From contig DASSKP010000002.1 of NCBI GenBank assembly GCA_035690365.1, forward strand, positions 10,983 to 74,982: 64,000 bases of DNA. The letters run 5' to 3'. This DNA comes from Mycobacteriales bacterium (GTDB taxonomy: Bacteria > Actinomycetota > Actinomycetes > JAFAQI01). Within the stretch, counting starts at the first letter, position 1. Each line of letters starts with the position of its first letter. Positions 5,282 through 46,287 of the stretch are shown here, in pieces. The position numbers and the translations under genes are program-made. Below the pieces are notes generated by a model. That model saw nothing but the letters and a program-made list of their open reading frames with translations, was not told the origin of the DNA and searched no databases.

Positions 5282-6055
5282 ATGAGCGATGGACGCACCC
5301 GGCGCGGTGCTATCGACGGTCGCGAACGCGACCGGTCCGCTGCGGCAGCAGCTCGTCCGACTTCGTCGGGAGCCGCACTCGCAGTGGGTGAAGAGTCGCA
5401 GCCACCGAGGGACCCGCGGGTACGACGGACGAGGGCGGTCATCGAGGAGGCGTTCGTTCGCCTGGTGCGAGAGATCGGCTATGACAGCGTCACCGTTGAG
5501 CAAGTGGCAGAGGTCGCCGACGTTGCGAAAGCGACCTTCTACCGGCACTACGAGAGTAAGGAAGCGCTGCTGGCAGCGTTGTCTGAGCGGCTCGTGTGTG
5601 GCCTTGCCGACCGCAATGACGGTGGGCGCACCCCGTTGCCGGCAGACGAGCACGCCTCGGTCACTGCGGCGTATGAGCACGCAGAAGAACTGCGCGACCT
5701 CTACCAGGTGTGCCTTGCCGATGCGCGGGCGCGCGCCGCGTATATCACCGTCTTTGCGCGTCACTCGGAGGAGCAGCTGCGCCGGGCGGTCGGAATGCTC
5801 GGACGCGAGCCACGAGTCCCCGCGCCGGTGATGGCGACCTTCTTCGCCGGCGCCCACGTCGCGCTACTTGAACGCTGGCTCGATGGGAGCATCTCTCACA
5901 CGGGAGACGAGGTCGCATCGATGGAACTGGCGCTGTTCGCCGGCGGGGCCGCTTGGGCACACCGGATGACCCTTGACGAGCTGAGCAGCCCGGAAATCGT
6001 CGCCGCCGTCAAGCGCCATGACAGCAATCGCGAGCCCACTCAACGCGCCGGATAG
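5282..6055 (+). CDS. TetR family transcriptional regulator
   Basis: In-frame ATG at 5282 inside ORF 4589..6055. The HTH is TVEQVAEVADVAKATFYRHYESKEALL. The upstream part of the ORF overlaps the PBP gene and is Arg/Gly-rich. Confidence 0.8.
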   Translation: MSDGRTRRGAIDGRERDRSAAAAARPTSSGAALAVGEESQPPRDPRVRRTRAVIEEAFVRLVREIGYDSVTVEQVAEVADVAKATFYRHYESKEALLAALSERLVCGLADRNDGGRTPLPADEHASVTAAYEHAEELRDLYQVCLADARARAAYITVFARHSEEQLRRAVGMLGREPRVPAPVMATFFAGAHVALLERWLDGSISHTGDEVASMELALFAGGAAWAHRMTLDELSSPEIVAAVKRHDSNREPTQRAG

Positions 6056-13354: not shown

Positions 13355-14625
<1,271 letters not shown>

Positions 14626-14650: not shown

Positions 14651-15886
14651 GTGACCGACCTGCAGATCGACGTCTACAACCTGGACCAGTACGCCGAGAG
14701 CGGCGTCCCTCACGACCAGCTGAGGCGACTGCGCAACGAGGCGCCGGTCTTCCGGCACGACGACCCGCAGCTGCCCGAGGGCTACTGGGCGATCACCAAG
14801 CACGCCGACGTCATCTACGTCTCGCGCAACCCGGAGCTGTTCTCCTCCTGGGAGAAGACGGCGATGCTCGACGAGTACGCACAGGAGCAGATCGACCAGC
14901 AGCGCATGTTCATGCTCAACCAGGACCCGCCCGAGCACACCCGCACCCGGCAGCTGGTCAACCGCGGCTTCACGCCGCGGATGATCGCGCGGCTCGAGGA
15001 GCGCATCCAGCACAACTGCGACGAGATCGTCGCGCAGGCTCTCGCCAAGGGCGAGGGCGACTTCGTCACCCTGTGCGCCGCCGAGCTTCCGCTGATCGTC
15101 ATCGCCGAGCTCATGGGCGTCCCGATCGAGGACCGGCACAAGGTCTTCGACTGGTCCAACCGCATGGTCGGCGGCCAGGACCCGGAGTACGGCGTCACCG
15201 AGGAGCAGCGCTTCGGCGCAGCGCAGGAGATGTGGGCCTACGCCAACGACCTGGCCAAGAAGAAGCGCGAGGAGCTCAAGGACGACATCGTCTCGAAGCT
15301 GATCAGCCCGGATGACGAGGGCAACGTGCTCAGCGAGCTCGAGTTCGACCTGTTCTTCATGCTGCTCGCGGTCGCCGGCAACGAGACGACCCGCAACGCG
15401 ATCTCCGGCGGCATGTATGCACTGACACAACATCCGGAGCAGTGGGAGCGCCTGAAGGCCGACCCGTCGTTGTTGCCGACGGCTGCCGACGAGATCGTGC
15501 GCTGGGTCAGCCCGGTCAACCTCTTCCGGCGCACCCCGACGCAGGACGTGGAGATCGGCGGGCAGCCGATCAAGAAGGGCGAGAAGGTCGTCATCTACTA
15601 CTCGTCCGCCAACCGTGACGAGAGCGTCTTCGCCAACCCCGACATCTTCGACATCGGCCGTGAACCCAACCCGCACGTCGGGTTCGGTGGCGGCGGGCCG
15701 CACTTCTGCCTGGGCCGGCACCTGGCGAAGCTCGAGATCGAGTGCCTTTTCCGGTCGCTCATCACGCAGTGCGAGCGAGTCGACCTCGTCGCCGAGCCGC
15801 GTCGCTTGCGGTCCAACTTCATCAACGGCATCAAGGAGATGCAGGTGCGCTTCATCCCGGCTTCCCCTGGCGGCAGCACAGCATGA
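14651..15886 (+). CDS. Cytochrome P450, CYP124/CYP125-clade (steroid/lipid terminal hydroxylase)
   Basis: Motifs are LAVAGNETTRNAI, ADEIVRW and the heme loop NPHVGFGGGGPHFCLGRHLA. C-terminal RLRSNFINGIKEMQV resembles CYP124/CYP125. The gene is divergent from fadA5, as cyp125 is in mycobacteria. Confidence 0.9.
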   Translation: MTDLQIDVYNLDQYAESGVPHDQLRRLRNEAPVFRHDDPQLPEGYWAITKHADVIYVSRNPELFSSWEKTAMLDEYAQEQIDQQRMFMLNQDPPEHTRTRQLVNRGFTPRMIARLEERIQHNCDEIVAQALAKGEGDFVTLCAAELPLIVIAELMGVPIEDRHKVFDWSNRMVGGQDPEYGVTEEQRFGAAQEMWAYANDLAKKKREELKDDIVSKLISPDDEGNVLSELEFDLFFMLLAVAGNETTRNAISGGMYALTQHPEQWERLKADPSLLPTAADEIVRWVSPVNLFRRTPTQDVEIGGQPIKKGEKVVIYYSSANRDESVFANPDIFDIGREPNPHVGFGGGGPHFCLGRHLAKLEIECLFRSLITQCERVDLVAEPRRLRSNFINGIKEMQVRFIPASPGGSTA

Positions 15887-30735: not shown

Positions 30736-32199
30736 GTGCATACGTTCGAGAAAACCCTGGAGTGGTTCGCGAACAACATCTTCAATGAGGTCGCGATCCT
30801 CATCGCCATCATCGTCCTGATCGGACTGGCGCTGCAGAAGAAGCGCGGTGACGAGATCATGTCCGGGGCAATCCGGGCAGCGGTCGGCGTCTATGCGATG
30901 TTCATCGGCATCGCCGTGTTCGTCGGCGGGTTGAGCGCCTTCCAGGCGATCACCGCCAGCGCCTTCGGCAAGACGCCACCGTCGTCGTTGCCGAAGTACT
31001 CGCTCGACAAGTTCATGGCCGACAAGGGAGCGGTCATCGCGATGGTCATCACCGTCGCGTTCCTGATGCACATCGCCATCGTGCGGCTGTTCAGGCTCAA
31101 GTTCGTCTACCTGACCGGCCACCTGATGTTCTGGATGAGCGTTGTCGTCACCGCCTCGCTGTCCGCCGGTTGGGCAGGCATGGGCAAGTGGACGATGATC
31201 CTCGTCGGCGCTGCGATCGTGGCGACGTACTGGACAGTCCAGCCGATCGTGCTCCAGAAGAAGATGGAGCGGGTCATCGGCTCTGACGACTGGGGCTACG
31301 GCCACACCAGCGCATCGGCGGCGTATCTGGGTGCAGCGATCGGCAAGCGGATCGGTGACCCGGAGCGGCAGGACACCGAGAAGCTGCACATGCCGCGTTG
31401 GCTGTCCTTCTTCAAGGACGTCAACGTCGCCACTGCCGTCGTGATCATGGCGATCATGCTCATCGCGATGGCCTTCGCGGACCCGAAGGTCTACGACGCT
31501 CAGGCCGCGACCTACAGCGCCACCATGAACCCGTGGGTGTGGGCAGTCGTGTCCGCGCTGCGCTTCGCAGGCGGGATCGCCGTCCTGCTGTTCGGTGTGC
31601 GGATGTTCCTCGCCGAGATCGTCCCGGCATTCAAGGGCATCAGCGACAAGGTCATCCCGGGCGCACGTCCGGCCCTGGACTGCCCGACGGTGTTCCCGTA
31701 CTCGCCCACCGCCGTGATGATCGGCTTCCTGTCGAGCACCGCGGTCTTCCTGGTCATGATGGCGCTCTTCCCGGCACTCGGCTGGTTCGGTGGATTCGTC
31801 CTCGTGCCGCCGATGATCATGCTCTTCTTCCCGGGTGGCGCGGCCGGCGTGTTCGGCAACAAGCACGGTGGTTGGCCGGGCGCGGTCGCAGGCGGTGCAG
31901 TCAACGGCCTGTTCCTCGCCTTTGGTCAGGCGATCACGTGGAACCTGCTGGTGCACAACGGCCCGCAGATGGCGACGCTCGCCGACCCCGACTGGTACAT
32001 CGTGAACTGGGCGATCCTGTTCGTCCGGCACCCGCTGGGCTTCGCTGACGGATACCAGGGCTTCGTGACGGTGTTCGGCTGGATCTTCACCGCCGTCGTC
32101 ATCTACGGCCTCTACTCGCTCTACAAGCGGCTCACGGGCCCGAAGGCGATTGTCCTGCCGTCCGCCCCGGCCGACGCGCGAGAGCTGACGAAGGTCTGA
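30736..32199 (+). CDS. PTS EIIC, L-ascorbate (UlaA/SgaT) family permease
   Basis: GTG 30736 lies 8 nt after AGGGAGG. It is a multi-TM protein with UlaA-like blocks (LTGHLMFWMS, GVRMFLAEIVPAFKGISDKVIPGA.PALDC, FFPGGAAGVFGNKHGGW). Confidence 0.85.
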   Translation: MHTFEKTLEWFANNIFNEVAILIAIIVLIGLALQKKRGDEIMSGAIRAAVGVYAMFIGIAVFVGGLSAFQAITASAFGKTPPSSLPKYSLDKFMADKGAVIAMVITVAFLMHIAIVRLFRLKFVYLTGHLMFWMSVVVTASLSAGWAGMGKWTMILVGAAIVATYWTVQPIVLQKKMERVIGSDDWGYGHTSASAAYLGAAIGKRIGDPERQDTEKLHMPRWLSFFKDVNVATAVVIMAIMLIAMAFADPKVYDAQAATYSATMNPWVWAVVSALRFAGGIAVLLFGVRMFLAEIVPAFKGISDKVIPGARPALDCPTVFPYSPTAVMIGFLSSTAVFLVMMALFPALGWFGGFVLVPPMIMLFFPGGAAGVFGNKHGGWPGAVAGGAVNGLFLAFGQAITWNLLVHNGPQMATLADPDWYIVNWAILFVRHPLGFADGYQGFVTVFGWIFTAVVIYGLYSLYKRLTGPKAIVLPSAPADARELTKV

Positions 32200-32223
32200 C
32201 GAAGGTCTGACGTCTGTCGTCAG
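32185..32223. repeat. 11-bp tandem duplication (CTGACGAAGGT x2 plus CTGACG) spanning the EIIC stop codon, ending in a CTGACG-N5-CGTCAG inverted repeat
   Basis: The units lie at 32185-32195 and 32196-32206, with a partial unit at 32207-32212. The inverted repeat is 32207-32212 / 32218-32223. Confidence 0.6.
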
Positions 32224-39495: not shown

Positions 39496-40380
39496 CTAAC
39501 GTGCGAGGCGGCCCAGCCAGCGGAGCCAGCCCGGCCACATCTCGAGGTAGTGGTCGCGGGCGATCGGGTCGACGTAGGCAAGGGGTTCGTCCTCGTCGTC
39601 GTCGTCGATGACGATGCCGCGCCTGCCGGAGTACTCCTTGAGGTGCCGCAACAGGTCATCGGGACGTTCTTCGCCCGTTGCCGTGAGCGTCACGTCGCCG
39701 TCGGCGGCAGTCGCTCGAAGGACGGCCCCGTCGTCGAGGAACCAGTCGAACTCATCGTCCTCGACGCCGTAGAGCGGCGCCTTCGCGTGCGCCTCCGACC
39801 GGGAGCGCCAGGCCAACACGTCACCGGTCTTGCGGTCGACCGCGAAGACGGCCGCGGGCGCGTCCCCGGGTTCGTCGCCGATCGCGGCGTCGTCCCGGGG
39901 AGAGTCGAGACGGCGTACGGCGACCAACGCACCCAGTGCGATCACGACGTGCGCCACCTGGAGGCCCACCTCCGCGCTGAGCCGGGCGCCGACGGCGAGC
40001 CCGGTGACGGAGGCCTGAAGTGCGGCCCCGACCGCCGCCAGGCCGCCACCAAGCGCTGTGAGGGCGAGCAACGACGTCAGCGCGCTCGTGTGCCAGGGGA
40101 GCGCCGGTCCGTCGGCGAGCGACGGAGCCGTCCGACGCCACCAGACGATGACGGCCGCGATGAGCAGCAGCAGCACACCGACGCCGTCGCCGAACTCGCC
40201 GAAGGACGTCAGGACCAGCCCGGTGTGGAAGCGGCCGGGTGGCCCGAACTCGTCGTGCTGTCCGATGGCGGCGAAGCCGCCGACGAGTGACGAGAGCAGC
40301 CGCAGCACCTGAGCAGCGAGCAGCGTGGTCACCAGCAGGTCGCCGGTACCGCGGAGCCGGCGGTCAGGAGGTGTGGTCAT
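39496..40380 (-). CDS. Hypothetical polytopic membrane protein with acidic C-terminal domain
   Basis: ATG 40378-40380 overlaps the esterase stop (ATGA). It has 4-5 TM segments and then DDEFDWFLDDG...IVIDDDDEDEPLAYVDP. The longer ORF 39496..41085 overlaps the esterase gene. Confidence 0.55.
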   Translation of the reverse strand: MTTPPDRRLRGTGDLLVTTLLAAQVLRLLSSLVGGFAAIGQHDEFGPPGRFHTGLVLTSFGEFGDGVGVLLLLIAAVIVWWRRTAPSLADGPALPWHTSALTSLLALTALGGGLAAVGAALQASVTGLAVGARLSAEVGLQVAHVVIALGALVAVRRLDSPRDDAAIGDEPGDAPAAVFAVDRKTGDVLAWRSRSEAHAKAPLYGVEDDEFDWFLDDGAVLRATAADGDVTLTATGEERPDDLLRHLKEYSGRRGIVIDDDDEDEPLAYVDPIARDHYLEMWPGWLRWLGRLAR

Positions 40381-41630
40381 GCGGTGAGCGACCTCATGTC
40401 GGCGTGGTCTGCGTAGACGTAACGCAGGAACCGCTCGACTCCGCGGATCACGTGTGCGCTGCGGATCGAGGCGAACACGTCGAAGGCGTGCTGGCCGCCC
40501 GGTAGCTCGGCATAGAGGACGGGGGCGCTGCTGACCTCGCGCAGCCGGCGGACGAGCTCGCGCGCCTCCGCGACCGGAACGAGTGAGTCGTGGGCGCCGT
40601 GAATGACGAAGAACGGTGGCGCGTCGTCGTGCACGTGCAGCAGCGGCGTCGCGTCGCGCGCGACGGCCGGGTCGGTCGACTTGAACACCATCTTGTTGAG
40701 GTAGTAGTCGGCGCGGCTGCGGCCGGCGCGAGTGTCGAGGACGTTGGCCAGGTCGTAGGCACCGTAGAACGGCACGCAGGCCTGCACGCTGGTGTCGGCG
40801 TCCTCGAACCCCGGCTGGTAGCGCGGATCGTTCTGCGTCAGCGCGAGCATCGCCGCAAGATGGCCACCGGCGGACCCGCCCGTCACCGCGATGAACGACG
40901 GATCGCCGCCGAACTCCTCCGCGTGCTCGCGGACCCACACCAGCGCACGCTTCAGCGCCACCAGATGGTCGGGCCACGTCGCCTTCGGCGACAGCGGGTA
41001 GTTGGGTGCCATGCAGACCCAGTCGCGCGCTGCCAGATGGGTCATCAGCGGCAGGCCCTGATCCTCCTTGCGGCCGATCACCCACCCGCCGCCGTGCACC
41101 TGCACGATCACCGGCAGGCCGGTCTTGTGCCCGTCGCGCGGGTGGTAGACGTCCAGCCGATGCCGGGGGTTGCCGTCGCCGACGTAGTCGATGTCACGAA
41201 CTCGCTTCACCGCCGGGTGCTTCACCTGCCAGGGCATCAGCACCTGGCGCCACGGCGTGGTGAGGTCGGCCTCGTCCGGCTTGGGGTCGAGCCGCGCGAC
41301 GTAGTCGTCGTGGAGCCCCTCGGTCAGCGCCCGCTCGACGTGATGCCTCGACTCGAGACCCTGCCGGATCAGCCAGGCGAGCCCGGCGACCGACGCCGCG
41401 TTGAGCGCCAGCGCGAGCTTGTCGTCCCTGTCGAGACGTCCGCGGCGTCTGGCGACGTACGCCGCGGAACCGCCCACGGTGATCGCGAGGTTGTGGGGCG
41501 CCAGCTCGCTGGTCAGCCAGCTGGCGAAGAAGCTCGGCACCGCCAGCGGGTTGCTCCCCGGCAGCGGCCGAAGCCCGTTGGCGGTCAGTGCGGCCCCGAG
41601 ACCGGCAAGGCGAAGGAAACGACGGCTCAC
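40377..41630 (-). CDS. Alpha/beta hydrolase, HSL-type esterase/lipase with N-terminal membrane segments
   Basis: The oxyanion motif is VQVHGGGWVIG, and the nucleophile elbow is VTGGSAGGHLA. HGAHDSLVP lies near the C-terminus. Confidence 0.8.
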   Translation of the reverse strand: MSRRFLRLAGLGAALTANGLRPLPGSNPLAVPSFFASWLTSELAPHNLAITVGGSAAYVARRRGRLDRDDKLALALNAASVAGLAWLIRQGLESRHHVERALTEGLHDDYVARLDPKPDEADLTTPWRQVLMPWQVKHPAVKRVRDIDYVGDGNPRHRLDVYHPRDGHKTGLPVIVQVHGGGWVIGRKEDQGLPLMTHLAARDWVCMAPNYPLSPKATWPDHLVALKRALVWVREHAEEFGGDPSFIAVTGGSAGGHLAAMLALTQNDPRYQPGFEDADTSVQACVPFYGAYDLANVLDTRAGRSRADYYLNKMVFKSTDPAVARDATPLLHVHDDAPPFFVIHGAHDSLVPVAEARELVRRLREVSSAPVLYAELPGGQHAFDVFASIRSAHVIRGVERFLRYVYADHADMRSLTA

Positions 41631-41658
41631 AGCGGCAAGTCTGCCAGTCCTCGCGGAT

Positions 41659-41673
41659 CTGACGCCTCGTCAG
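41659..41673. promoter_or_regulatory. Perfect palindrome CTGACG-CCT-CGTCAG
   Basis: It lies in the 76-bp divergent region between the esterase (start 41630) and WS/DGAT (start 41707). A second palindrome, AACGGCG-GAT-CGCCGTT, follows at 41678-41694. Confidence 0.45.
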
Positions 41674-41706
41674 GCCGAACGGCGGATCGCCGTTACGCTT
41701 CTCTCT

Positions 41707-43161
41707 ATGCAGCGACTCGGTGGACTGGACTCCGCCTTCCTCTATTTCGAGACGCCGACGATGCACATGCATGTCGGCGGCCTCATGCTCATCGACCCGT
41801 CGACGATGTCCAAGCCCTACTCGTACGCCGACGTCTACCGCTACATCGAGTCGCGGCTGTCGCTCGTGCCGGCCTTTCGTCGCAAGCTCGCCACGGTCCC
41901 GCTCAACCTGTCCAAGCCCTACTGGGTCGAGGACCAGGACTTCGACCTCGACTACCACCTGCACCGCATCGCCGTGCCGCCGCCCGGCGGCGACAAGGAG
42001 ACTGCGGAGGTCGTCGCCGACATCCTCAGCAAGCCGATGGACCGTAGCCGTCCGCTCTGGCAGATGTGGGTCGTCGAGGGGCGCAAGGACGGCCTCATCG
42101 GCATCGTCAGCAAGGTCCACCACAGCACCATCGACGGCGTCACGGGCGCCAACATGATGGCCGAGCTGTTCGACCTCGAGCCGGACGCGGCTCCGCGTAA
42201 GCCGCAGATGGATCTGTGGGAGCCGGAGCGCAAGCCGAGCGACGTCGAGATGCTGGGCCGCGCGGTCTACGACGTGATCAGCCGTCCGGTCGGCGTGGCG
42301 AAGCTCATCCCCGGCACCGTCCTGGGCGCCGGCAAGCTGTTGCTGAGCCGACGTCACCGCGGCGGCGGCATGCCCGCGCCGTTCACCGCGCCGCGGACGT
42401 CGTTCAACGCGACCGTCACGCCGCACCGCATCGTCGCCTACACGCACGTCCCGCTCGAGGACGTGAAGAAGGTGAAGAACGCCTTCGGCGTGAAGGTCAA
42501 CGACGTCGTCATCGCGATCACGTCAGGCGCCTTGCGGCGCTACCTCGCCGAGCGTGACGAGCTCCCGGACCGCTCGCTGATCGCCGCCATCCCTGTCTCG
42601 GTTCACGACCGCAGTGAGAGCAAGCAGGGCACGACGAAGGTGTCGTTCATGTTCTCCAGCCTGGAGAGCGACGTCGACGACCCGGGGGAGCGGTTGCGCC
42701 GGATCGCCGAGACCAACGATGCGGCGAAGGAGGAGCACGAGCTCGTCGGCGCCAGCATGTTGCAGGACTGGGCGGAGCACGCCGCGCCCAACACGTTCTC
42801 GCTCGCGGCCCGGGTCTACTCCAGCCTCCGGCTCTCCGAGCGTCACCCGGTCGTGCACAACCTCATCGTGTCCAACGTCCCGGGTCCGCCGATCCCGCTC
42901 TACTTCGCCGGCGCGAAGCTCGTCGCGCTGCACCCGCTCGGCCCGGTCATGGACGGTGCGGGACTCAACGTCACCGTGCTGTCCAACATGGACGTGCTGG
43001 GCTTCGGCTTCATCGCCTGCCGCGAGCTCATGCCGGAGCTGTGGGATCTCTCCGACGCAGTCGCTCCCGCCCTGGCGGAGCTGGTCGAAGCGGCCGACGC
43101 GGTCGCCGGCAGCAGTGGCAAGCAGGCTAAGCGGCCGGCCGCCGCTCCAGCCGGCGGGTGA
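41707..43161 (+). CDS. Wax ester synthase / diacylglycerol acyltransferase (WS/DGAT)
   Basis: From ATG 41707: LDSAFLYFETPTMHMHVGG and the catalytic HHSTIDG (HHxxxDG), and the C-terminal NVPGPPIPLYFAG motif. Confidence 0.9.
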   Translation: MQRLGGLDSAFLYFETPTMHMHVGGLMLIDPSTMSKPYSYADVYRYIESRLSLVPAFRRKLATVPLNLSKPYWVEDQDFDLDYHLHRIAVPPPGGDKETAEVVADILSKPMDRSRPLWQMWVVEGRKDGLIGIVSKVHHSTIDGVTGANMMAELFDLEPDAAPRKPQMDLWEPERKPSDVEMLGRAVYDVISRPVGVAKLIPGTVLGAGKLLLSRRHRGGGMPAPFTAPRTSFNATVTPHRIVAYTHVPLEDVKKVKNAFGVKVNDVVIAITSGALRRYLAERDELPDRSLIAAIPVSVHDRSESKQGTTKVSFMFSSLESDVDDPGERLRRIAETNDAAKEEHELVGASMLQDWAEHAAPNTFSLAARVYSSLRLSERHPVVHNLIVSNVPGPPIPLYFAGAKLVALHPLGPVMDGAGLNVTVLSNMDVLGFGFIACRELMPELWDLSDAVAPALAELVEAADAVAGSSGKQAKRPAAAPAGG

Positions 43162-44083
43162 CCGAGCGGCACGCTGCGATCAGCACCGGCACGAACTCTT
43201 CTGCGCCGAGCACGATCGCGGCGTGGTTGCCCTCGACGTCGTAGGTCATCGCGCCGGGGATCGACGCGGCGAGCCGCCGTTGCCGTCGCGTCGGGATGAA
43301 CCGGTCGCGGGTCGCGACGATGACACTGGTCGGTACGTCGACCCGGTTGATCCATGTCGCGGAGTCGAACTTTCCGATCTCGTCGAGAGCGGCGAAGATC
43401 GACCAGGCACTCGTGCTGCGGAACTCCGTCATCGCCCACGGTGCGATCCGGTCGGCGGCGGCGGACAGTCCGGACGGCTGGTCGCTCAACGCGCCGGCGA
43501 CCTTGAGCATGCCGGTGCGTGCACGAACGCCCCAGCGGTTCATGGCAGCGGCGGTGAGCGAGAACCACAACCGCTCGGTCATCTTGCCGCGGAAGTTGCG
43601 CGCCGTCGCGGCGAGCACGAGTCCCTCGACCCGCTCGCGATGCCGCTTCCACGTCATCTGGGCAACGGCGCCACCCATCGAGTAGCCGACGAGCATGAAC
43701 TTGTCGACGCGGCAGGCGTCCGCGACCGCGACCACGTCGTCGGCGCAGTCGGGGATGCGGAAGTGCTCTGACTGGATGCCGCGACCGTGCCAGCGCTGGT
43801 CGAACGCGATGACGCGGTAGTGCTGCGTCAGCGCCTCGATCGACGGATACCAGGACAGCGCCGCGGTCGTCGCGAGCGCGTGCAGAAGGATCACCGTCGG
43901 GGCGCCTTCAGGACCGGGCGCGTCGATCACGCAGGTCCGTCCGCGATCCGGCAGCTCGACGAGTCGCGGCGCAGGGAGGTCTACCGGCTTGGCGGCCTTG
44001 GCGATCTTTCCGAGGGCGTTGGCCACACGCGGCACTCGTCCGCCCGGCGAGCCGGGCTCACGGTCGGCGTTGTCACTCGTCAT
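43127..44083 (-). CDS. Alpha/beta hydrolase
   Basis: From ATG 44081-44083 (MTSDNADREPG...): TVILLHALATT, the nucleophile elbow VGYSMGG, and C-terminal GNHAAIV. Its 3-prime end overlaps the WS/DGAT 3-prime end by 35 nt. Confidence 0.75.
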   Translation of the reverse strand: MTSDNADREPGSPGGRVPRVANALGKIAKAAKPVDLPAPRLVELPDRGRTCVIDAPGPEGAPTVILLHALATTAALSWYPSIEALTQHYRVIAFDQRWHGRGIQSEHFRIPDCADDVVAVADACRVDKFMLVGYSMGGAVAQMTWKRHRERVEGLVLAATARNFRGKMTERLWFSLTAAAMNRWGVRARTGMLKVAGALSDQPSGLSAAADRIAPWAMTEFRSTSAWSIFAALDEIGKFDSATWINRVDVPTSVIVATRDRFIPTRRQRRLAASIPGAMTYDVEGNHAAIVLGAEEFVPVLIAACRSVTRRLERRPAA

Positions 44084-44100
44084 TGGATCCGAAGATAACC

Positions 44101-44115
44101 CTGACGGGTCGTCAG
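44101..44115. promoter_or_regulatory. Perfect palindrome CTGACG-GGT-CGTCAG
   Basis: It lies 18 nt upstream of the hydrolase ATG (minus strand) and 40 nt from a KstR box. The half-sites are the same as at 41659. Confidence 0.45.
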
Positions 44116-44154
44116 AAATGACCGGCACGCCAAGTTCTCTGGCTTTCACAAAAC

Positions 44155-44168
44155 TGAAACCTGTTCTA
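44155..44168. promoter_or_regulatory. KstR operator-like box TGAAACCTGTTCTA
   Basis: It matches TnnAACnnGTTnnA perfectly. It lies 11 nt upstream of the GTG start of the fused ACAD. Confidence 0.7.
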
Positions 44169-44178
44169 ATATGCCCGG

Positions 44179-46287
44179 GTGCCGTGGAGCGCGCTGGCCG
44201 TGACGGCCGAGCAGGCTGCCCTCGCGGAGGCCGTTCGCGGCTTCGCGCAGTCCACCTCGCTCGTGAAGGAGTCGCGCGCCGCCGCAGAGGGCGAAAGCCC
44301 GACGCTCCCACCCTCCTGGTCGCTGCTCGCCAAGCAGGAGCTGCTCGCGTTGCCCTTCGACGCGGAGCTGGTCGACGTGTGCGTCGCGGTTGACGCCCTT
44401 GGTGCTGCTCTGGCCCCGGGACCGCTCGTGCCGACCCTCGCCGTCGCCCGGCTCGTCGCGAGCGCCGGCGACGACGCCGCCCGCGGGCTGGTCGAGCCTG
44501 GAGTGCGTGACGGTTCCTTCAGTGCTGCCGTCGATGTCGACGGACTGCTTGTCGGCGGCGCTGCCGTCACCCATGTCCTGACGCGCGTCGGCGGCGAGCT
44601 GTGTCTCGTCGACGCCGCCTCCGCCGTGATCGAGTCGCAGCCCGGTCTCGACGGCAGCCGAGGCGTGGCGACCCTGTCGGCCGCCCCGTCCGCGGATGTC
44701 GTCGTCGGGCGGCTGCCCGGAGTGACCGATGGCGACGTACGACGTCTTGTCGCCGTGCTCCTCTCCGCGGAGTCGGCCGGCATCGCGGCGTGGTGTCTCG
44801 AGACCGCCGTCGACTACGCGAAGGTGCGTGAGCAGTTCGGCCAGCCGATCGGTGCGTTCCAGGCCGTGAAGCATCGCTGCGCGCGAATGCTCGCCGAGGT
44901 CGAGCTGGCCCGGGCCGCTGTCTGGGACGCCGCCGGCGCCCACGACGACGACGCCGACGAGGACACCCGACGCCTCGTGACTGCGGTCGCCGCGTCGGCC
45001 GCACTGCAGGCCGCGGTCGACAACGCGAAGAGCGTCGTGCAGGTGCTCGGCGGCATCGGCTACACCTGGGAGCACGACGCGCACCTCTATCTCAAGCGCG
45101 CGATCGCCAACCGGCAGCTGCTGGGCGGCGGCACGACGTCATGGCATCGCGAAGCCGTGCAGCTCGCTCGCAGCGGCGTACGACGGTCACGGCACCTGCA
45201 TCTCGGTCCCGACGCCGAGCCCGTGCGGGCAGAGGTGCAGGAGTTCCTGACCGGGGTGCAGTCGCTGGACAGCACCGAGCAGCGCAAGGCGATCGCCGAT
45301 GCGGGCTATCTCGTCCCGCACTGGCCGAAGCCCTATGGTCGCGCCGCCGGACCGGTCGAGCAGCTTGTGATCGACGAGGAGTTCGCGCGCGCGGGCGTCG
45401 ATCGGCCGGACCTCATCATCGGCAACTGGGCACTGCCGACGATCCTCGAGCACGGCACGGACGAGCAGCGCAGCCGGTTCGTCCCGCCGACGCTCTACGG
45501 CGAGATCAAGTGGTGCCAGATGTTCAGCGAACCCGGTGCGGGCTCCGACCTCGCCTCACTGCAGACGAAGGCGGTGCGCGTCGAGGGCGGCTGGTCGCTG
45601 TCGGGGCAGAAGGTGTGGACGTCGCAGGCGCGCGTCGCCCAGTGGGCGATCTGTCTGGCCCGCACGTCCAGCGAACCTGACCGTCACGCCGGCATCACCT
45701 ACTTCCTCGTGGACATGAGGTCGCCCGGTCTCGACGTGCGGCCGCTGCGCGAGCTGACCGGCCACGCGATGTTCAACGAGATCTTCCTGACCGACGTCTT
45801 CGTGCCGGACGACTGTGTCGTCGGCGAGGTCGGGGGCGGCTGGCGGCTCGCCCGCACGACGCTCGCGAACGAGCGGGTCGCGATGAGCAGCGGCTCGGCC
45901 TTCCCCTCCGGCATCGAGCAGCTGCTCGAGGCGCTCGACGCGCACGAGGCGTCGGAGGACGACGCGGCGCAGGTCGCCGTCGGCGAGCTGATCTGCCGCG
46001 CCCAGGCCGACGTGATGCTGGGTGTTCGCGCCACGCTCGCCCGGGTCTCGGGCACCGACCCGGGTGCGGCGTCGAGTGTCCGCAAGCTGGTCGGCATGCA
46101 CCTGCGCCAGGACGCCTCCGAGCTCTCCCTGTCACTGCTCGGTCCGGCAGCGGCGGCCGGTGGTGACGCGGCGACGGCGGCACTGCAACGATTCCTCGGC
46201 ACCCGCGCCCTCACCATCGCCGGTGGCACGAGCGAGGTCCTGCACAACGTGATCGCCGAGCGCATCCTCGGCTTGCCGAGAGGCTGA
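44179..46287 (+). CDS. fadE34: Fused two-domain acyl-CoA dehydrogenase (FadE34/ChsE3-like)
   Basis: It is 702 aa with two ACAD modules in one chain (first REQFGQPIGAFQAVKHRCARM, second GWPKPYG...MFSEPGAGSDLASLQTKAVR...IAGGTSEVLHN). The size and architecture are as for mycobacterial FadE34. A KstR box lies upstream. Confidence 0.75.
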   Translation: MPWSALAVTAEQAALAEAVRGFAQSTSLVKESRAAAEGESPTLPPSWSLLAKQELLALPFDAELVDVCVAVDALGAALAPGPLVPTLAVARLVASAGDDAARGLVEPGVRDGSFSAAVDVDGLLVGGAAVTHVLTRVGGELCLVDAASAVIESQPGLDGSRGVATLSAAPSADVVVGRLPGVTDGDVRRLVAVLLSAESAGIAAWCLETAVDYAKVREQFGQPIGAFQAVKHRCARMLAEVELARAAVWDAAGAHDDDADEDTRRLVTAVAASAALQAAVDNAKSVVQVLGGIGYTWEHDAHLYLKRAIANRQLLGGGTTSWHREAVQLARSGVRRSRHLHLGPDAEPVRAEVQEFLTGVQSLDSTEQRKAIADAGYLVPHWPKPYGRAAGPVEQLVIDEEFARAGVDRPDLIIGNWALPTILEHGTDEQRSRFVPPTLYGEIKWCQMFSEPGAGSDLASLQTKAVRVEGGWSLSGQKVWTSQARVAQWAICLARTSSEPDRHAGITYFLVDMRSPGLDVRPLRELTGHAMFNEIFLTDVFVPDDCVVGEVGGGWRLARTTLANERVAMSSGSAFPSGIEQLLEALDAHEASEDDAAQVAVGELICRAQADVMLGVRATLARVSGTDPGAASSVRKLVGMHLRQDASELSLSLLGPAAAAGGDAATAALQRFLGTRALTIAGGTSEVLHNVIAERILGLPRG

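What the first reader, a model, noticed from the sequence alone, without database searches (positions are those of the whole stretch)
44101..44168. Perfect palindrome CTGACG-N3-CGTCAG recurs only in promoter regions of lipid/steroid genes, here beside a KstR box
CTGACGGGTCGTCAG (44101-44115) lies in the divergent region between the alpha/beta hydrolase (ATG 44083, minus strand) and the fadE34-like ACAD. It is 40 nt from a perfect KstR box (44155-44168). The same half-sites recur at three other sites. One is at 41659-41673 (CTGACGCCTCGTCAG, the esterase/WS-DGAT divergent region). One has a single mismatch at 14584-14598 (TTGACGCCCCGTCAG, between the two KstR boxes of fadA5/P450). One has a 5-nt spacer at 32207-32223 (between PTS IIC and IIB). 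My manual scan of every CGTCAG in the window found no copy of the N3 palindrome inside coding sequence. Intergenic DNA is only about 5 percent of the window, and a specific 12-nt pattern is expected far less than once per 64 kb. This looks like the operator of a dimeric regulator that overlays the KstR regulon and neutral-lipid genes. It does not match the KstR (TnnAACnnGTTnnA) or KstR2 motifs that I know.
Basis: seen in the sequence. Interest (0 to 1): 0.6.

Follow-up and report, generated by a model that had tools for sequence, protein, structure and literature searches.

The report
Operator of an uncharacterised TetR repressor
The palindrome is real and is most likely the docking site of an unstudied TetR-type repressor that, in this uncultured soil actinobacterium and its relatives, switches steroid-ring and fatty-acid breakdown genes and sits side by side with the known KstR switch on several promoters: a new regulator-operator pair, but an ordinary kind of gene switch.

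Summary
Confirmed. CTGACG-N3-CGTCAG is the core of a 21-bp palindrome, rWWTCTGACG-N3-CGTCAGAWWy. The genome (3.08 Mb, 66% complete soil MAG, Mycobacteriales/Frankiaceae-like) has 12 perfect N3 copies against 0.84 expected, and 0-4 at other spacings. All of the top 22 weight-matrix hits are intergenic or at gene 5' ends. They lie in front of fadE, echA, fadD, thiolase, SDR and aldehyde-dehydrogenase genes and an echA20-ipdA-ipdB-ipdC-like operon.

The likely regulator is the genome's only TetR_C_38 (PF19352) protein. It lies outside the window, at C78:99708-100334. It carries the box in front of its own operon in more than 20 orthologous loci. All 15 relatives that have the gene have the box, and 22 of 26 without it have none. 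Its recognition helix is invariant even in 35%-identical Acidimicrobiia homologues that keep the same box.

All three window sites are conserved in orthologous promoters of other genera:
- 44101: 6 of 7 in-family promoters, always beside a conserved KstR box
- 41659: 5 of 7
- 14584: 11 of 12

The N5 copy at 32207 is an unrelated hairpin, and the TetR at 5465-6055 is not the regulator. I found no published description. Binding and ligand are untested.

The parts
44098..44118 (.). Box 1: 21-bp operator ACCCTGACGGGTCGTCAGAAA (core 44101-44115), 24 bits on the regulon matrix
   Evidence: Conserved in 6 of 7 in-family orthologous intergenic regions, as one of only two conserved islands.
44092..44097 (-). 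Inferred -10 hexamer (TATCTT on the minus strand) of the hydrolase promoter. It starts 3-4 nt after the box and ends 8 nt before the ATG, so the mRNA is probably leaderless.
   Evidence: Read from the sequence. A TAnnnT hexamer stands in the same place relative to the box in all 7 aligned genomes. This is inference; no transcript data exist.
43127..44083 (-). Alpha/beta-hydrolase gene (PcaD/HsaD-like, below all equivalog cut-offs); the gene nearest box 1
   Evidence: Pfam and NCBIfam. The box centre is 25 nt from its ATG.
44155..44168 (.). KstR box TGAAACCTGTTCTA
   Evidence: Present 24-37 nt before the ACAD start in all 7 in-family orthologues and in the window.
44145..44172 (+). Sigma-70-like promoter (TTCACA-16-TAATAT) of the ACAD gene. 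Its -10 hexamer overlaps the KstR box and ends 6 nt before the GTG.
   Evidence: consensus scan only.
44179..46287 (+). Fused two-module acyl-CoA dehydrogenase (fadE34-like)
   Evidence: Pfam and NCBIfam.
41656..41676 (.). Box 2: GATCTGACGCCTCGTCAGGCC. Perfect core, one poor flank, 11 bits here.
   Evidence: A box stands at the same place before the WS/DGAT gene in 5 of 7 in-family relatives, at 26-29 bits in G002 and G003.
40377..41630 (-). LipQ-like esterase, divergent from WS/DGAT
41707..43161 (+). WS/DGAT wax-ester/triacylglycerol synthase family acyltransferase
   Evidence: (TIGR02946, 489 bits, above cut-off).
14581..14601 (.). Box 3: variant CTGTTGACGCCCCGTCAGATC (T for C in the left half-site), 10.6 bits
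   Evidence: The same TTGACG variant is kept in 11 of 12 orthologous fadA5/P450 regions.
14551..14564 (.). KstR-like box TAGAACACATTCTA (1 mismatch), 9 nt from the fadA5 start
14612..14625 (.). KstR-like box TAGAACACGTTCTC (1 mismatch), 26 nt before the P450 start
13355..14542 (-). fadA5: steroid 3-ketoacyl-CoA thiolase
   Evidence: NCBIfam NF005889, 661 bits, cut-off 515.
14651..15886 (+). Cytochrome P450, in the cyp125 position
   Evidence: P450 families only, no equivalog. The cyp125 assignment rests on position only.

Best explanation
The palindrome is the core of a 21-bp operator, rWWTCTGACG-N3-CGTCAGAWWy. It is bound by a homodimer of a TetR-family repressor with a TetR_C_38 (PF19352) ligand domain, encoded outside the window at C78:99708-100334.

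The two 7-bp half-sites are 10 bp apart centre to centre, which is one helical turn. That fits one TetR dimer contacting two successive major grooves, and it explains why only the N3 spacing is enriched.

The repressor sits in, and autoregulates, an SDR-TetR operon divergent from an echA20-ipdA-ipdB-ipdC-like operon. It controls about 25 promoters of CoA-dependent breakdown genes. It therefore occupies the place that KstR2 holds in mycobacteria, with an unrelated operator sequence and no detectable close relationship to KstR2.

In the window it acts at three divergent promoter regions.
- At 44101 the box lies directly upstream of the inferred -10 of the leaderless alpha/beta-hydrolase gene and would block RNA polymerase there. 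The neighbouring KstR box covers the -10 of the fadE34-like gene, so each of the two divergent genes has its own repressor.
- At 41659 the box precedes WS/DGAT and the LipQ-like esterase.
- At 14584 a weaker variant lies between the two KstR boxes of fadA5 and the P450.

A CoA thioester from the pathway (HIP-CoA-like or acyl-CoA) probably releases the repressor.

Shown here: the sites, their enrichment, their conservation, and the co-occurrence of gene and box. Inferred: binding, repression, dimer stoichiometry and ligand.
For: Enrichment is specific to one spacing: 12 copies at N3 against 0.84 expected, and 0-4 at other spacings.

All of the top 22 matrix hits are intergenic or within 175 nt of a called start. 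Their targets are fadE, echA, fadD, thiolase, CoA-transferase, SDR, aldehyde dehydrogenase, LLM, P450, NMO, OYE and DUF35/ChsH2-like genes.

The echA-ipdA-ipdB-NMO operon has a box at its head and the SDR-TetR operon diverges from it. This is the only PF19352 gene in the genome.

In more than 20 loci with orthologues of >=72% identity, boxes stand about 10-60 nt before the TetR gene and about 850 nt upstream, before the SDR gene. Boxes also lie within 1-3 kb of 33-38%-identical Acidimicrobiia homologues.

The HTH segment SPATFYQYFVD and an N-terminal DGRxxGxR arm are invariant across that whole range.

Phyletic pattern: 15 of 15 genomes with the TetR have the strict 17-mer, and 22 of 26 without it have none (Fisher P = 6e-8). 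Three of the four exceptions are 57-69% complete.

Footprinting: only the box and the KstR box are conserved in the hydrolase/ACAD gap across 7 genomes (6 other genera), while its length varies. Synteny is kept. Boxes 2 and 3 are conserved too.

The AlphaFold model (pLDDT 91.7) is a canonical TetR fold. Its nearest structures are EthR and then the acyl-CoA sensors SaFadR, FasR, FadR and DesT.

Half-site letters are invariant with no compensatory changes, RNA folding is unexceptional and Rfam gives no match.
Against: There is no binding, expression or ligand evidence of any kind; everything is comparative.

Boxes 2 and 3 score only about 11 bits in this genome, in a range where 2 of 5 hits are inside genes.

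Box 3 has TTGACG in every genome, which could equally be a conserved -35 hexamer inside a generally conserved promoter.

Four genomes have boxes but no detected TetR. I attribute this to incompleteness or contamination but have not proved it.

Gene calls come from my own simple caller, so distances to start codons are approximate.

The genome is 66% complete, and the KstR gene itself was not found.
Confidence: 0.8

Rival explanations
1. The box is a real operator, but a different transcription factor binds it (another TetR, or a CRP- or GntR-type protein). That factor merely co-occurs with the TetR_C_38 gene because both belong to the same catabolic island.
For: No binding data exist. Four genomes have boxes without a detected TetR_C_38 gene. 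In the Acidimicrobiia loci the boxes lie 1-3 kb from the TetR gene, not directly before it.
Against: The box lies directly in front of the TetR gene or its operon in more than 20 loci. The recognition helix stays invariant while the rest of the protein drifts to 35% identity and the box stays the same. No other regulator gene was found next to any strong site; the 188-aa ORF flanked by two boxes is a lipoprotein. The co-occurrence is 15 of 15.
Confidence: 0.1
2. Only box 1 (44101) is a working site. Box 2 (41659) and box 3 (14584) are decayed or coincidental. Box 3 in particular would be conserved because TTGACG is the -35 hexamer of a KstR-controlled promoter.
For: Both score about 11 bits here, and 2 of the 5 genome hits at 10-12 bits are inside genes. 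The TTGACG form of box 3 is fixed in all relatives, and the whole fadA5/P450 gap is well conserved.
Against: Both keep a complete right half-site and the N3 spacing in other genera. Box 2 reaches 26-29 bits in G002 and G003 at the same position before WS/DGAT. Box 3 reaches 15-19 bits in G004, G002 and G012. A -35 hexamer alone would not need the CGTCAGAT partner 3 nt away.
Confidence: 0.2
3. The palindrome acts as an RNA or DNA hairpin (attenuator, terminator or processing site) rather than as a protein-binding site.
For: The consensus scan flags 44117-44099 on the minus strand as terminator-like. N5 copies elsewhere do sit at gene ends like hairpins.
Against: The sites lie in divergent promoter gaps upstream of genes. 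The stem letters never covary; they are invariant. Folding z-scores are -0.0 to -1.5, and the minimum-energy fold of the 44101 region on the + strand does not even use the palindrome. Rfam gives no match. The A/T flanks are conserved as sequence.
Confidence: 0.03
4. Chance recurrence of a codon-friendly hexamer pair, with no function.
For: Within the window alone, 4 of 100 shuffles give 3 matches at <=1 mismatch.
Against: Genome-wide P = 1e-10, the enrichment is specific to one spacing, the sites are intergenic, and they are conserved across genera with 0 hits for the reversed control pattern in 41 genomes.
Confidence: 0.01

Closest known systems
KstR2 (Rv3557c) and its regulon in Mycobacterium and Rhodococcus
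   Same: Both are TetR-family repressors encoded inside the steroid ring-C/D (HIP) cluster, next to echA20-ipdA-ipdB-ipdC-like and SDR (ipdF-like) genes. Both use a short palindromic operator at the heads of the fadE, echA and ipd operons. Autoregulation is likely, and a CoA-thioester ligand is plausible.
   Different: The operator is unrelated: TCTGACG-N3-CGTCAGA with A/T flanks, against AnCAAGnnCTTGnT. No intergenic KstR2 box exists in this genome. The protein belongs to Pfam TetR_C_38, and no KstR2 chain appears among the PDB matches by phmmer, profile or fold. The regulon is larger (about 25 promoters). It also reaches KstR-type promoters, fadD and aldehyde-dehydrogenase genes and WS/DGAT.
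KstR (Rv3574) and its operator TnnAACnnGTTnnA
   Same: Both are TetR repressors of steroid or lipid catabolism. KstR boxes are present in this genome at fadA5/P450, the fadE34-like gene and echA/ferredoxin.
   Different: It is a separate operator. Here the two kinds of box stand 30-55 nt apart in the same three divergent gaps, an arrangement I did not find described for mycobacteria. Their distance varies between genera at the ACAD promoter, from 36 to about 130 nt. That argues for independent binding rather than a joint complex.
TetR-type acyl-CoA sensors: FadR of Bacillus, Thermus and Sulfolobus; FasR; DesT
   Same: They share the fold class and rank high in the fold search (TM 0.6-0.7). They control beta-oxidation or lipid genes through palindromes and are released by acyl-CoA.
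   Different: Identity is only 16-22%. The operators differ, and the ligand here is unknown.
EthR (Rv3855) of M. tuberculosis
   Same: It is the best full-length match by profile (E = 1e-10) and by fold (TM 0.78-0.81).
   Different: Identity is about 17%. The gene context differs (ethA). By published knowledge EthR binds a long 55-bp operator as an octamer. It is not an orthologue.
SRTF1 (KR76_27130) of Nocardioides/Pimelobacter simplex
   Same: It is a third steroid-linked TetR besides KstR and KstR2, with a 22-bp palindrome in its own divergent promoter (PMC7062782, PMC7807495).
   Different: SRTF1 sits beside kstD genes, has three sites and answers to free progesterone-type steroids. Its operator letters are not printed in the text I could read, and GTCAG occurs nowhere in the paper or its supplements. 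I could not test identity.

Membership tests
TetR-family repressor with palindromic operator | N-terminal TetR HTH domain (PF00440) | tested here: met
   PF00440 at 32.3 bits (cut-off 24), residues 20-66 of P0002.
TetR-family repressor with palindromic operator | All-helical, roughly nine-helix TetR fold | tested here: met
   AlphaFold pLDDT 91.7, 10 helices. 196 PDB matches at E<=0.001; all of the 50 listed are TetR-family regulators.
TetR-family repressor with palindromic operator | Operator in front of its own gene or operon (autoregulation) | tested here: met
   Boxes stand 10-60 nt before the gene and before the upstream SDR gene in more than 20 orthologous loci. This shows location only, not binding.
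TetR-family repressor with palindromic operator | Specific DNA binding relieved by a small-molecule ligand | not testable with these tools
   Needs EMSA, BLI or DAP-seq with and without CoA thioesters.
Pfam TetR_C_38 (PF19352) | C-terminal domain scoring above the gathering threshold | tested here: met
   159.9 bits against a cut-off of 23.9. It is the only copy in the genome.
KstR2 regulon | Operator AnCAAGnnCTTGnT | tested here: not met
   The box has a different sequence. The genome has 3 KstR2-pattern hits, all inside genes.
KstR2 regulon | Regulator orthologous to Rv3557c | tested here: not met
   No KstR2 chain is among 14 phmmer matches (E<=1e-3), 46 profile matches (E<=0.01) or the top 50 fold matches. 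This rests on my knowledge that KstR2 structures are in the PDB. NCBIfam gives no equivalog.
KstR2 regulon | Regulator embedded in, and controlling, the echA20-ipdAB-ipdC / ipdF / fadE cluster | tested here: met
   The box heads an echA - CoA_trans A - CoA_trans B - NMO operon that is divergent from SDR-TetR. Gene identities rest on family and synteny, not on equivalog scores.
KstR regulon | Operator TnnAACnnGTTnnA | tested here: not met
   The box does not fit this pattern. Separate KstR boxes lie beside it.
SRTF1-type steroid sensor | Same operator and kstD-adjacent context | tested here: inconclusive
   The operator letters were not retrievable, and GTCAG is absent from the text and supplements. 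The context here is ipdAB, not kstD.

The most novel reading that the evidence does not exclude
TetR_C_38 proteins and the TCTGACG-N3-CGTCAGA box are a third master switch of actinobacterial steroid catabolism. It has taken over the ring-C/D (KstR2) role in Frankiales-like and Acidimicrobiia lineages. Unlike KstR2, it is wired into KstR promoters through dual-operator divergent regions. Side-chain genes (fadA5 and the P450 in the cyp125 position), a ring-cleavage-type hydrolase and a WS/DGAT-esterase pair would then respond to both an early and a late pathway intermediate. That would couple steroid breakdown to neutral-lipid or steryl-ester storage.
Probability: 0.35. Interest if true: 0.6.

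Novelty: new member of a known kind. Interest (0 to 1): 0.45.

Why it matters
Steroid and lipid catabolism in actinobacteria is usually explained by two TetR repressors, KstR and KstR2. This study adds four things.

- A widespread group of uncultured soil actinobacteria runs the ring-C/D and beta-oxidation genes from a different, undescribed repressor-operator pair. Acidimicrobiia homologues of the repressor carry the same box nearby, so the pair probably extends to that class.
- That pair shares promoters with KstR.
- The result gives a ready-made operator matrix for annotating these regulons in metagenomes.
- It names a candidate sensor protein for a CoA-thioester intermediate, and it points to a possible regulatory link between steroid breakdown and WS/DGAT-type lipid storage.

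Mechanistically this is a conventional repressor switch.

Tried and rejected
- **RNA hairpin or terminator:** rejected. Folding z-scores are -0.0 to -1.5, there is no covariation and Rfam gives no match.
- **N5 copy at 32207-32223 as a regulon member:** rejected. The matrix does not pick it up. It sits 15 nt after the PTS IIC stop inside a CTGACGAAGGT tandem repeat. Two of the other three N5 copies sit at gene ends like hairpins (one between convergent genes) and the third is inside a gene.
rejected. No box >=10 bits lies near it. It is not TetR_C_38, and its best PDB match is a weak N-terminal hit to Mce3R.
- **188-aa ORF flanked by two boxes (C53:2777-3343) as a hidden regulator:** rejected. 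It is a lipoprotein with a lipobox and has no HTH.
- **Other neighbours of strong sites or KstR boxes as regulators:** a 201-aa ORF next to the C3:21271 site is a pentapeptide-repeat protein, and the genes flanking the perfect KstR box at C3:16797 are an LLM monooxygenase and a DoxX protein, so the KstR gene was not located.
- **Literature:** 'FdmR' gave only unrelated hits. Motif letters together with TetR and acyl-CoA gave nothing relevant. Six written forms of the motif gave zero papers. SRTF1 papers were read, but the operator is not printed.
- **NCBIfam equivalog naming of regulon enzymes:** mostly below cut-off, so IpdE, FadE30 and similar names are not claimed.

Full report
**Observation**

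The KstR box at 44155-44168 (TGAAACCTGTTCTA) is a perfect TnnAACnnGTTnnA. At up to one mismatch the window holds exactly three CTGACG-N3-CGTCAG sites, all between genes. On the window alone this is only mildly unusual: 3 against 0.84 expected, and 4 of 100 shuffles reach 3.

The window is C2:10983-74982 of a 3.08-Mb, 85-contig, 69.8% G+C assembly. Relatives of its genes come from soil MAGs labelled Mycobacteriales, Frankiaceae or Frankiales, and from Frankia, Pseudofrankia and Parafrankia. The assembly is 66% complete.

**Genome-wide test**

The genome has 12 perfect N3 copies. Counts of the two half-sites predict 0.84 pairs at any fixed spacing (Poisson P = 1e-10), and spacings N0-N12 other than N3 give 0-4. 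I built a simple codon-usage gene caller (2,885 genes, 91.7% coding). By those calls, 10 of the 12 copies are intergenic although only 8.3% of the genome is.

The flanks are also conserved, and the full site is a 21-bp palindrome, rWWTCTGACG-N3-CGTCAGAWWy. In a weight-matrix scan the top 22 hits (24-36.5 bits) are all intergenic or within 175 nt of a called start. They cluster on contigs C78, C53, C70, C57 and C3. On this matrix the window sites score 24.0 (44101), 11.1 (41659) and 10.6 (14584).

**What the sites precede**

Pfam and NCBIfam scans of the flanking genes give:
- at least seven acyl-CoA dehydrogenases
- enoyl-CoA hydratases, a thiolase and a family-III CoA-transferase
- two acyl-CoA synthetases and two aldehyde dehydrogenases
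- several SDRs
- luciferase-like monooxygenases and a P450
- NMO-type and OYE-type flavoenzymes
- two F420H2-dependent reductases
- ChsH2/DUF35-type proteins
- alpha/beta hydrolases

One box (C78:101146) heads an operon of an enoyl-CoA hydratase, two CoA_trans (PF01144) subunits and an NMO protein. That is the order of echA20-ipdA-ipdB-ipdC in mycobacteria. Divergent from it is an SDR gene followed by a 208-aa TetR (P0002, C78:99708-100334) carrying PF00440 plus PF19352 (TetR_C_38, 159.9 bits). It is the only such gene in the genome.

**Linking box and regulator**

Four independent lines point to this TetR.

1. *Position.* Among 64 loci encoding relatives of P0002, nearly all orthologues of >=72% identity have one box 10-60 nt before the gene and another about 850 nt upstream, before the SDR gene. 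Homologues of only 33-38% identity in Acidimicrobiia MAGs still have strong boxes (25-36 bits) within 1-3 kb.
2. *Co-variation.* Across that whole range the recognition helix and its surroundings (D-I-T-R-x-x-G-S/T-S-P-A-T-F-Y-Q-Y-F-V-D) and an N-terminal DGRxxGxR arm are invariant, while the ligand domain diverges.
3. *Phyletic pattern.* In 41 genomes, the strict 17-mer TCTGACG-N3-CGTCAGA occurs in all 15 that have the TetR and in 4 of the 26 that lack it. Three of those four are 57-69% complete and the fourth is 8% contaminated. The reversed control pattern scores 0 everywhere (Fisher P = 6e-8).
4. *No alternative.* No other regulator gene lies beside a strong site. The small ORF flanked by two boxes on C53 is a lipoprotein.

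**Are the window sites real members?**

I fetched orthologous regions from other genera of the family. The gene order esterase <- | -> WS/DGAT, hydrolase <- | -> fused ACAD is kept.

In the hydrolase/ACAD gap the box is present in 6 of 7 in-family orthologues. It is also absent from the one out-of-family orthologue fetched, G025, which lacks the TetR. In an alignment of the window genome with those six relatives (seven genomes, six other genera), the only conserved islands are C-CTGACG-N3-CGTCAGAA and the KstR box with its TAnTAT. The spacer between them varies from 36 to about 130 nt.

The box before WS/DGAT is present in 5 of 7 and reaches 26-29 bits in two genera. The fadA5/P450 box is kept in 11 of 12 orthologous gaps, always with TTGACG in the left half.

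**How it probably works**

The two 7-bp half-sites are 10 bp apart centre to centre, as expected for one TetR dimer. Enrichment at one spacing only fits a rigid dimer.

At 44101, reading the minus strand, a TAnnnT hexamer (TATCTT, 44097-44092) starts 3-4 nt after the box in all seven genomes, and the start codon follows 7-12 nt later. The hydrolase mRNA is therefore probably leaderless. The box covers roughly -13 to -33 of its promoter, the classic place for steric repression.

On the other strand, a sigma-70-like promoter (44145-44172) has its -10 inside the KstR box, 6 nt before the ACAD GTG. The simplest reading is two back-to-back promoters, each with its own repressor. The variable distance between the boxes argues against a joint complex.

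At fadA5/P450 three operators share 75 bp at fixed spacing, so both repressors may act on both genes there.

A third dual-operator gap lies just outside the window, at C2:3787-3853. There the box is next to an echA gene and a KstR box next to a ferredoxin gene. Of the five credible KstR boxes in this assembly, four have this box within 30-55 nt.

The ligand is unknown. Two things make a CoA thioester the best guess: the gene's place in the ipdAB cluster, and fold neighbours that sense acyl-CoA (SaFadR, FasR, FadR, DesT, after EthR). This is inference.

**Comparison with known systems**

The system works like KstR2 but is not KstR2.
- The operator differs, and the genome has no intergenic KstR2 box.
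- No KstR or KstR2 chain appears among PDB matches by sequence, profile or fold.
- NCBIfam offers no equivalog.
- The nearest characterised protein is EthR, at about 17% identity.

I found no paper containing the motif in any written form. SRTF1 of Nocardioides simplex is a third steroid-linked TetR with a 22-bp palindrome. It sits by kstD genes and senses free steroids. Its operator letters are not printed, and GTCAG occurs nowhere in the paper or its supplements.

Earlier notes of this scan, from other windows and genomes, reached the same TetR_C_38 reading. I treated them as leads and re-derived the evidence here. What this window adds is the pairing with KstR boxes and the extension to the esterase/WS-DGAT promoter.

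**Limits**

- There is no experimental evidence.
- Gene starts come from my own caller.
- The assembly is incomplete, and the KstR gene was not found.
- Boxes 2 and 3 are weak in this genome and rest on conservation.
- Enzyme names such as ipdA/B/C rest on family and synteny, not on equivalog scores.
- The literature search covers only the open-access library.

**Verdict**

This is a real, conserved operator of an undescribed but conventional TetR repressor. It is a new member of a known kind, of moderate interest.

Noticed in passing
window 32160-32223: The PTS IIC and IIB genes are separated by a 46-nt gap. Spanning the end of IIC and that gap is a tandem repeat CTGACGAAGGT (about 2.5 copies) that runs into the hairpin CTGACG-TCTGT-CGTCAG. 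Folding gives -14.4 kcal/mol, z = -1.4. It may be an intercistronic stem-loop and is unrelated to the TetR box.
   Followed up: partly
L009:3787-3853 (C2:3787-3853, about 7 kb upstream of the window): A third dual-operator divergent gap. A TetR_C_38-type box (28 bits) stands about 20-28 nt before an enoyl-CoA hydratase gene on the minus strand. A perfect KstR box (TGGAACGTGTTCTA) stands 19 nt before a small ferredoxin-like ORF (MKIVVDHDECEANAVC...) on the plus strand.
   Followed up: partly
L003:2712-3382 (C53): A 188-aa lipoprotein gene with no Pfam family has strong boxes on both sides. One is shared with an aldehyde dehydrogenase gene and the other with an acyl-CoA synthetase gene. It may be a substrate-binding or uptake component of the regulon.
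   Followed up: no
L002:2214-4989 (C78:116214-118989): A box of 27 bits lies between a GH5 cellulase-family gene and an alpha/beta-hydrolase-like gene. These are odd members for a lipid or steroid regulon.
   Followed up: no
L007:1797-1810 (C3:16797): A perfect palindromic KstR box, TAGAACACGTTCTA, lies between a luciferase-like monooxygenase gene and a DoxX gene, with no TetR nearby. The KstR gene itself was not located in this 66%-complete assembly.
   Followed up: partly
window 44179-46287: The fadE34-like protein is a fusion of two acyl-CoA dehydrogenase modules in one 702-aa chain. The N-terminal module resembles IpdE2/PimD-type small subunits, and the C-terminal module resembles PimC-type large subunits.
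   Followed up: no
P450 orthologues in G003, G008, G012, G014, G016: The genome search reports one in-frame TGA inside the match for five orthologues of the P450 in the cyp125 position. This is probably the alignment running past the true stop or start, but I did not check.
   Followed up: no
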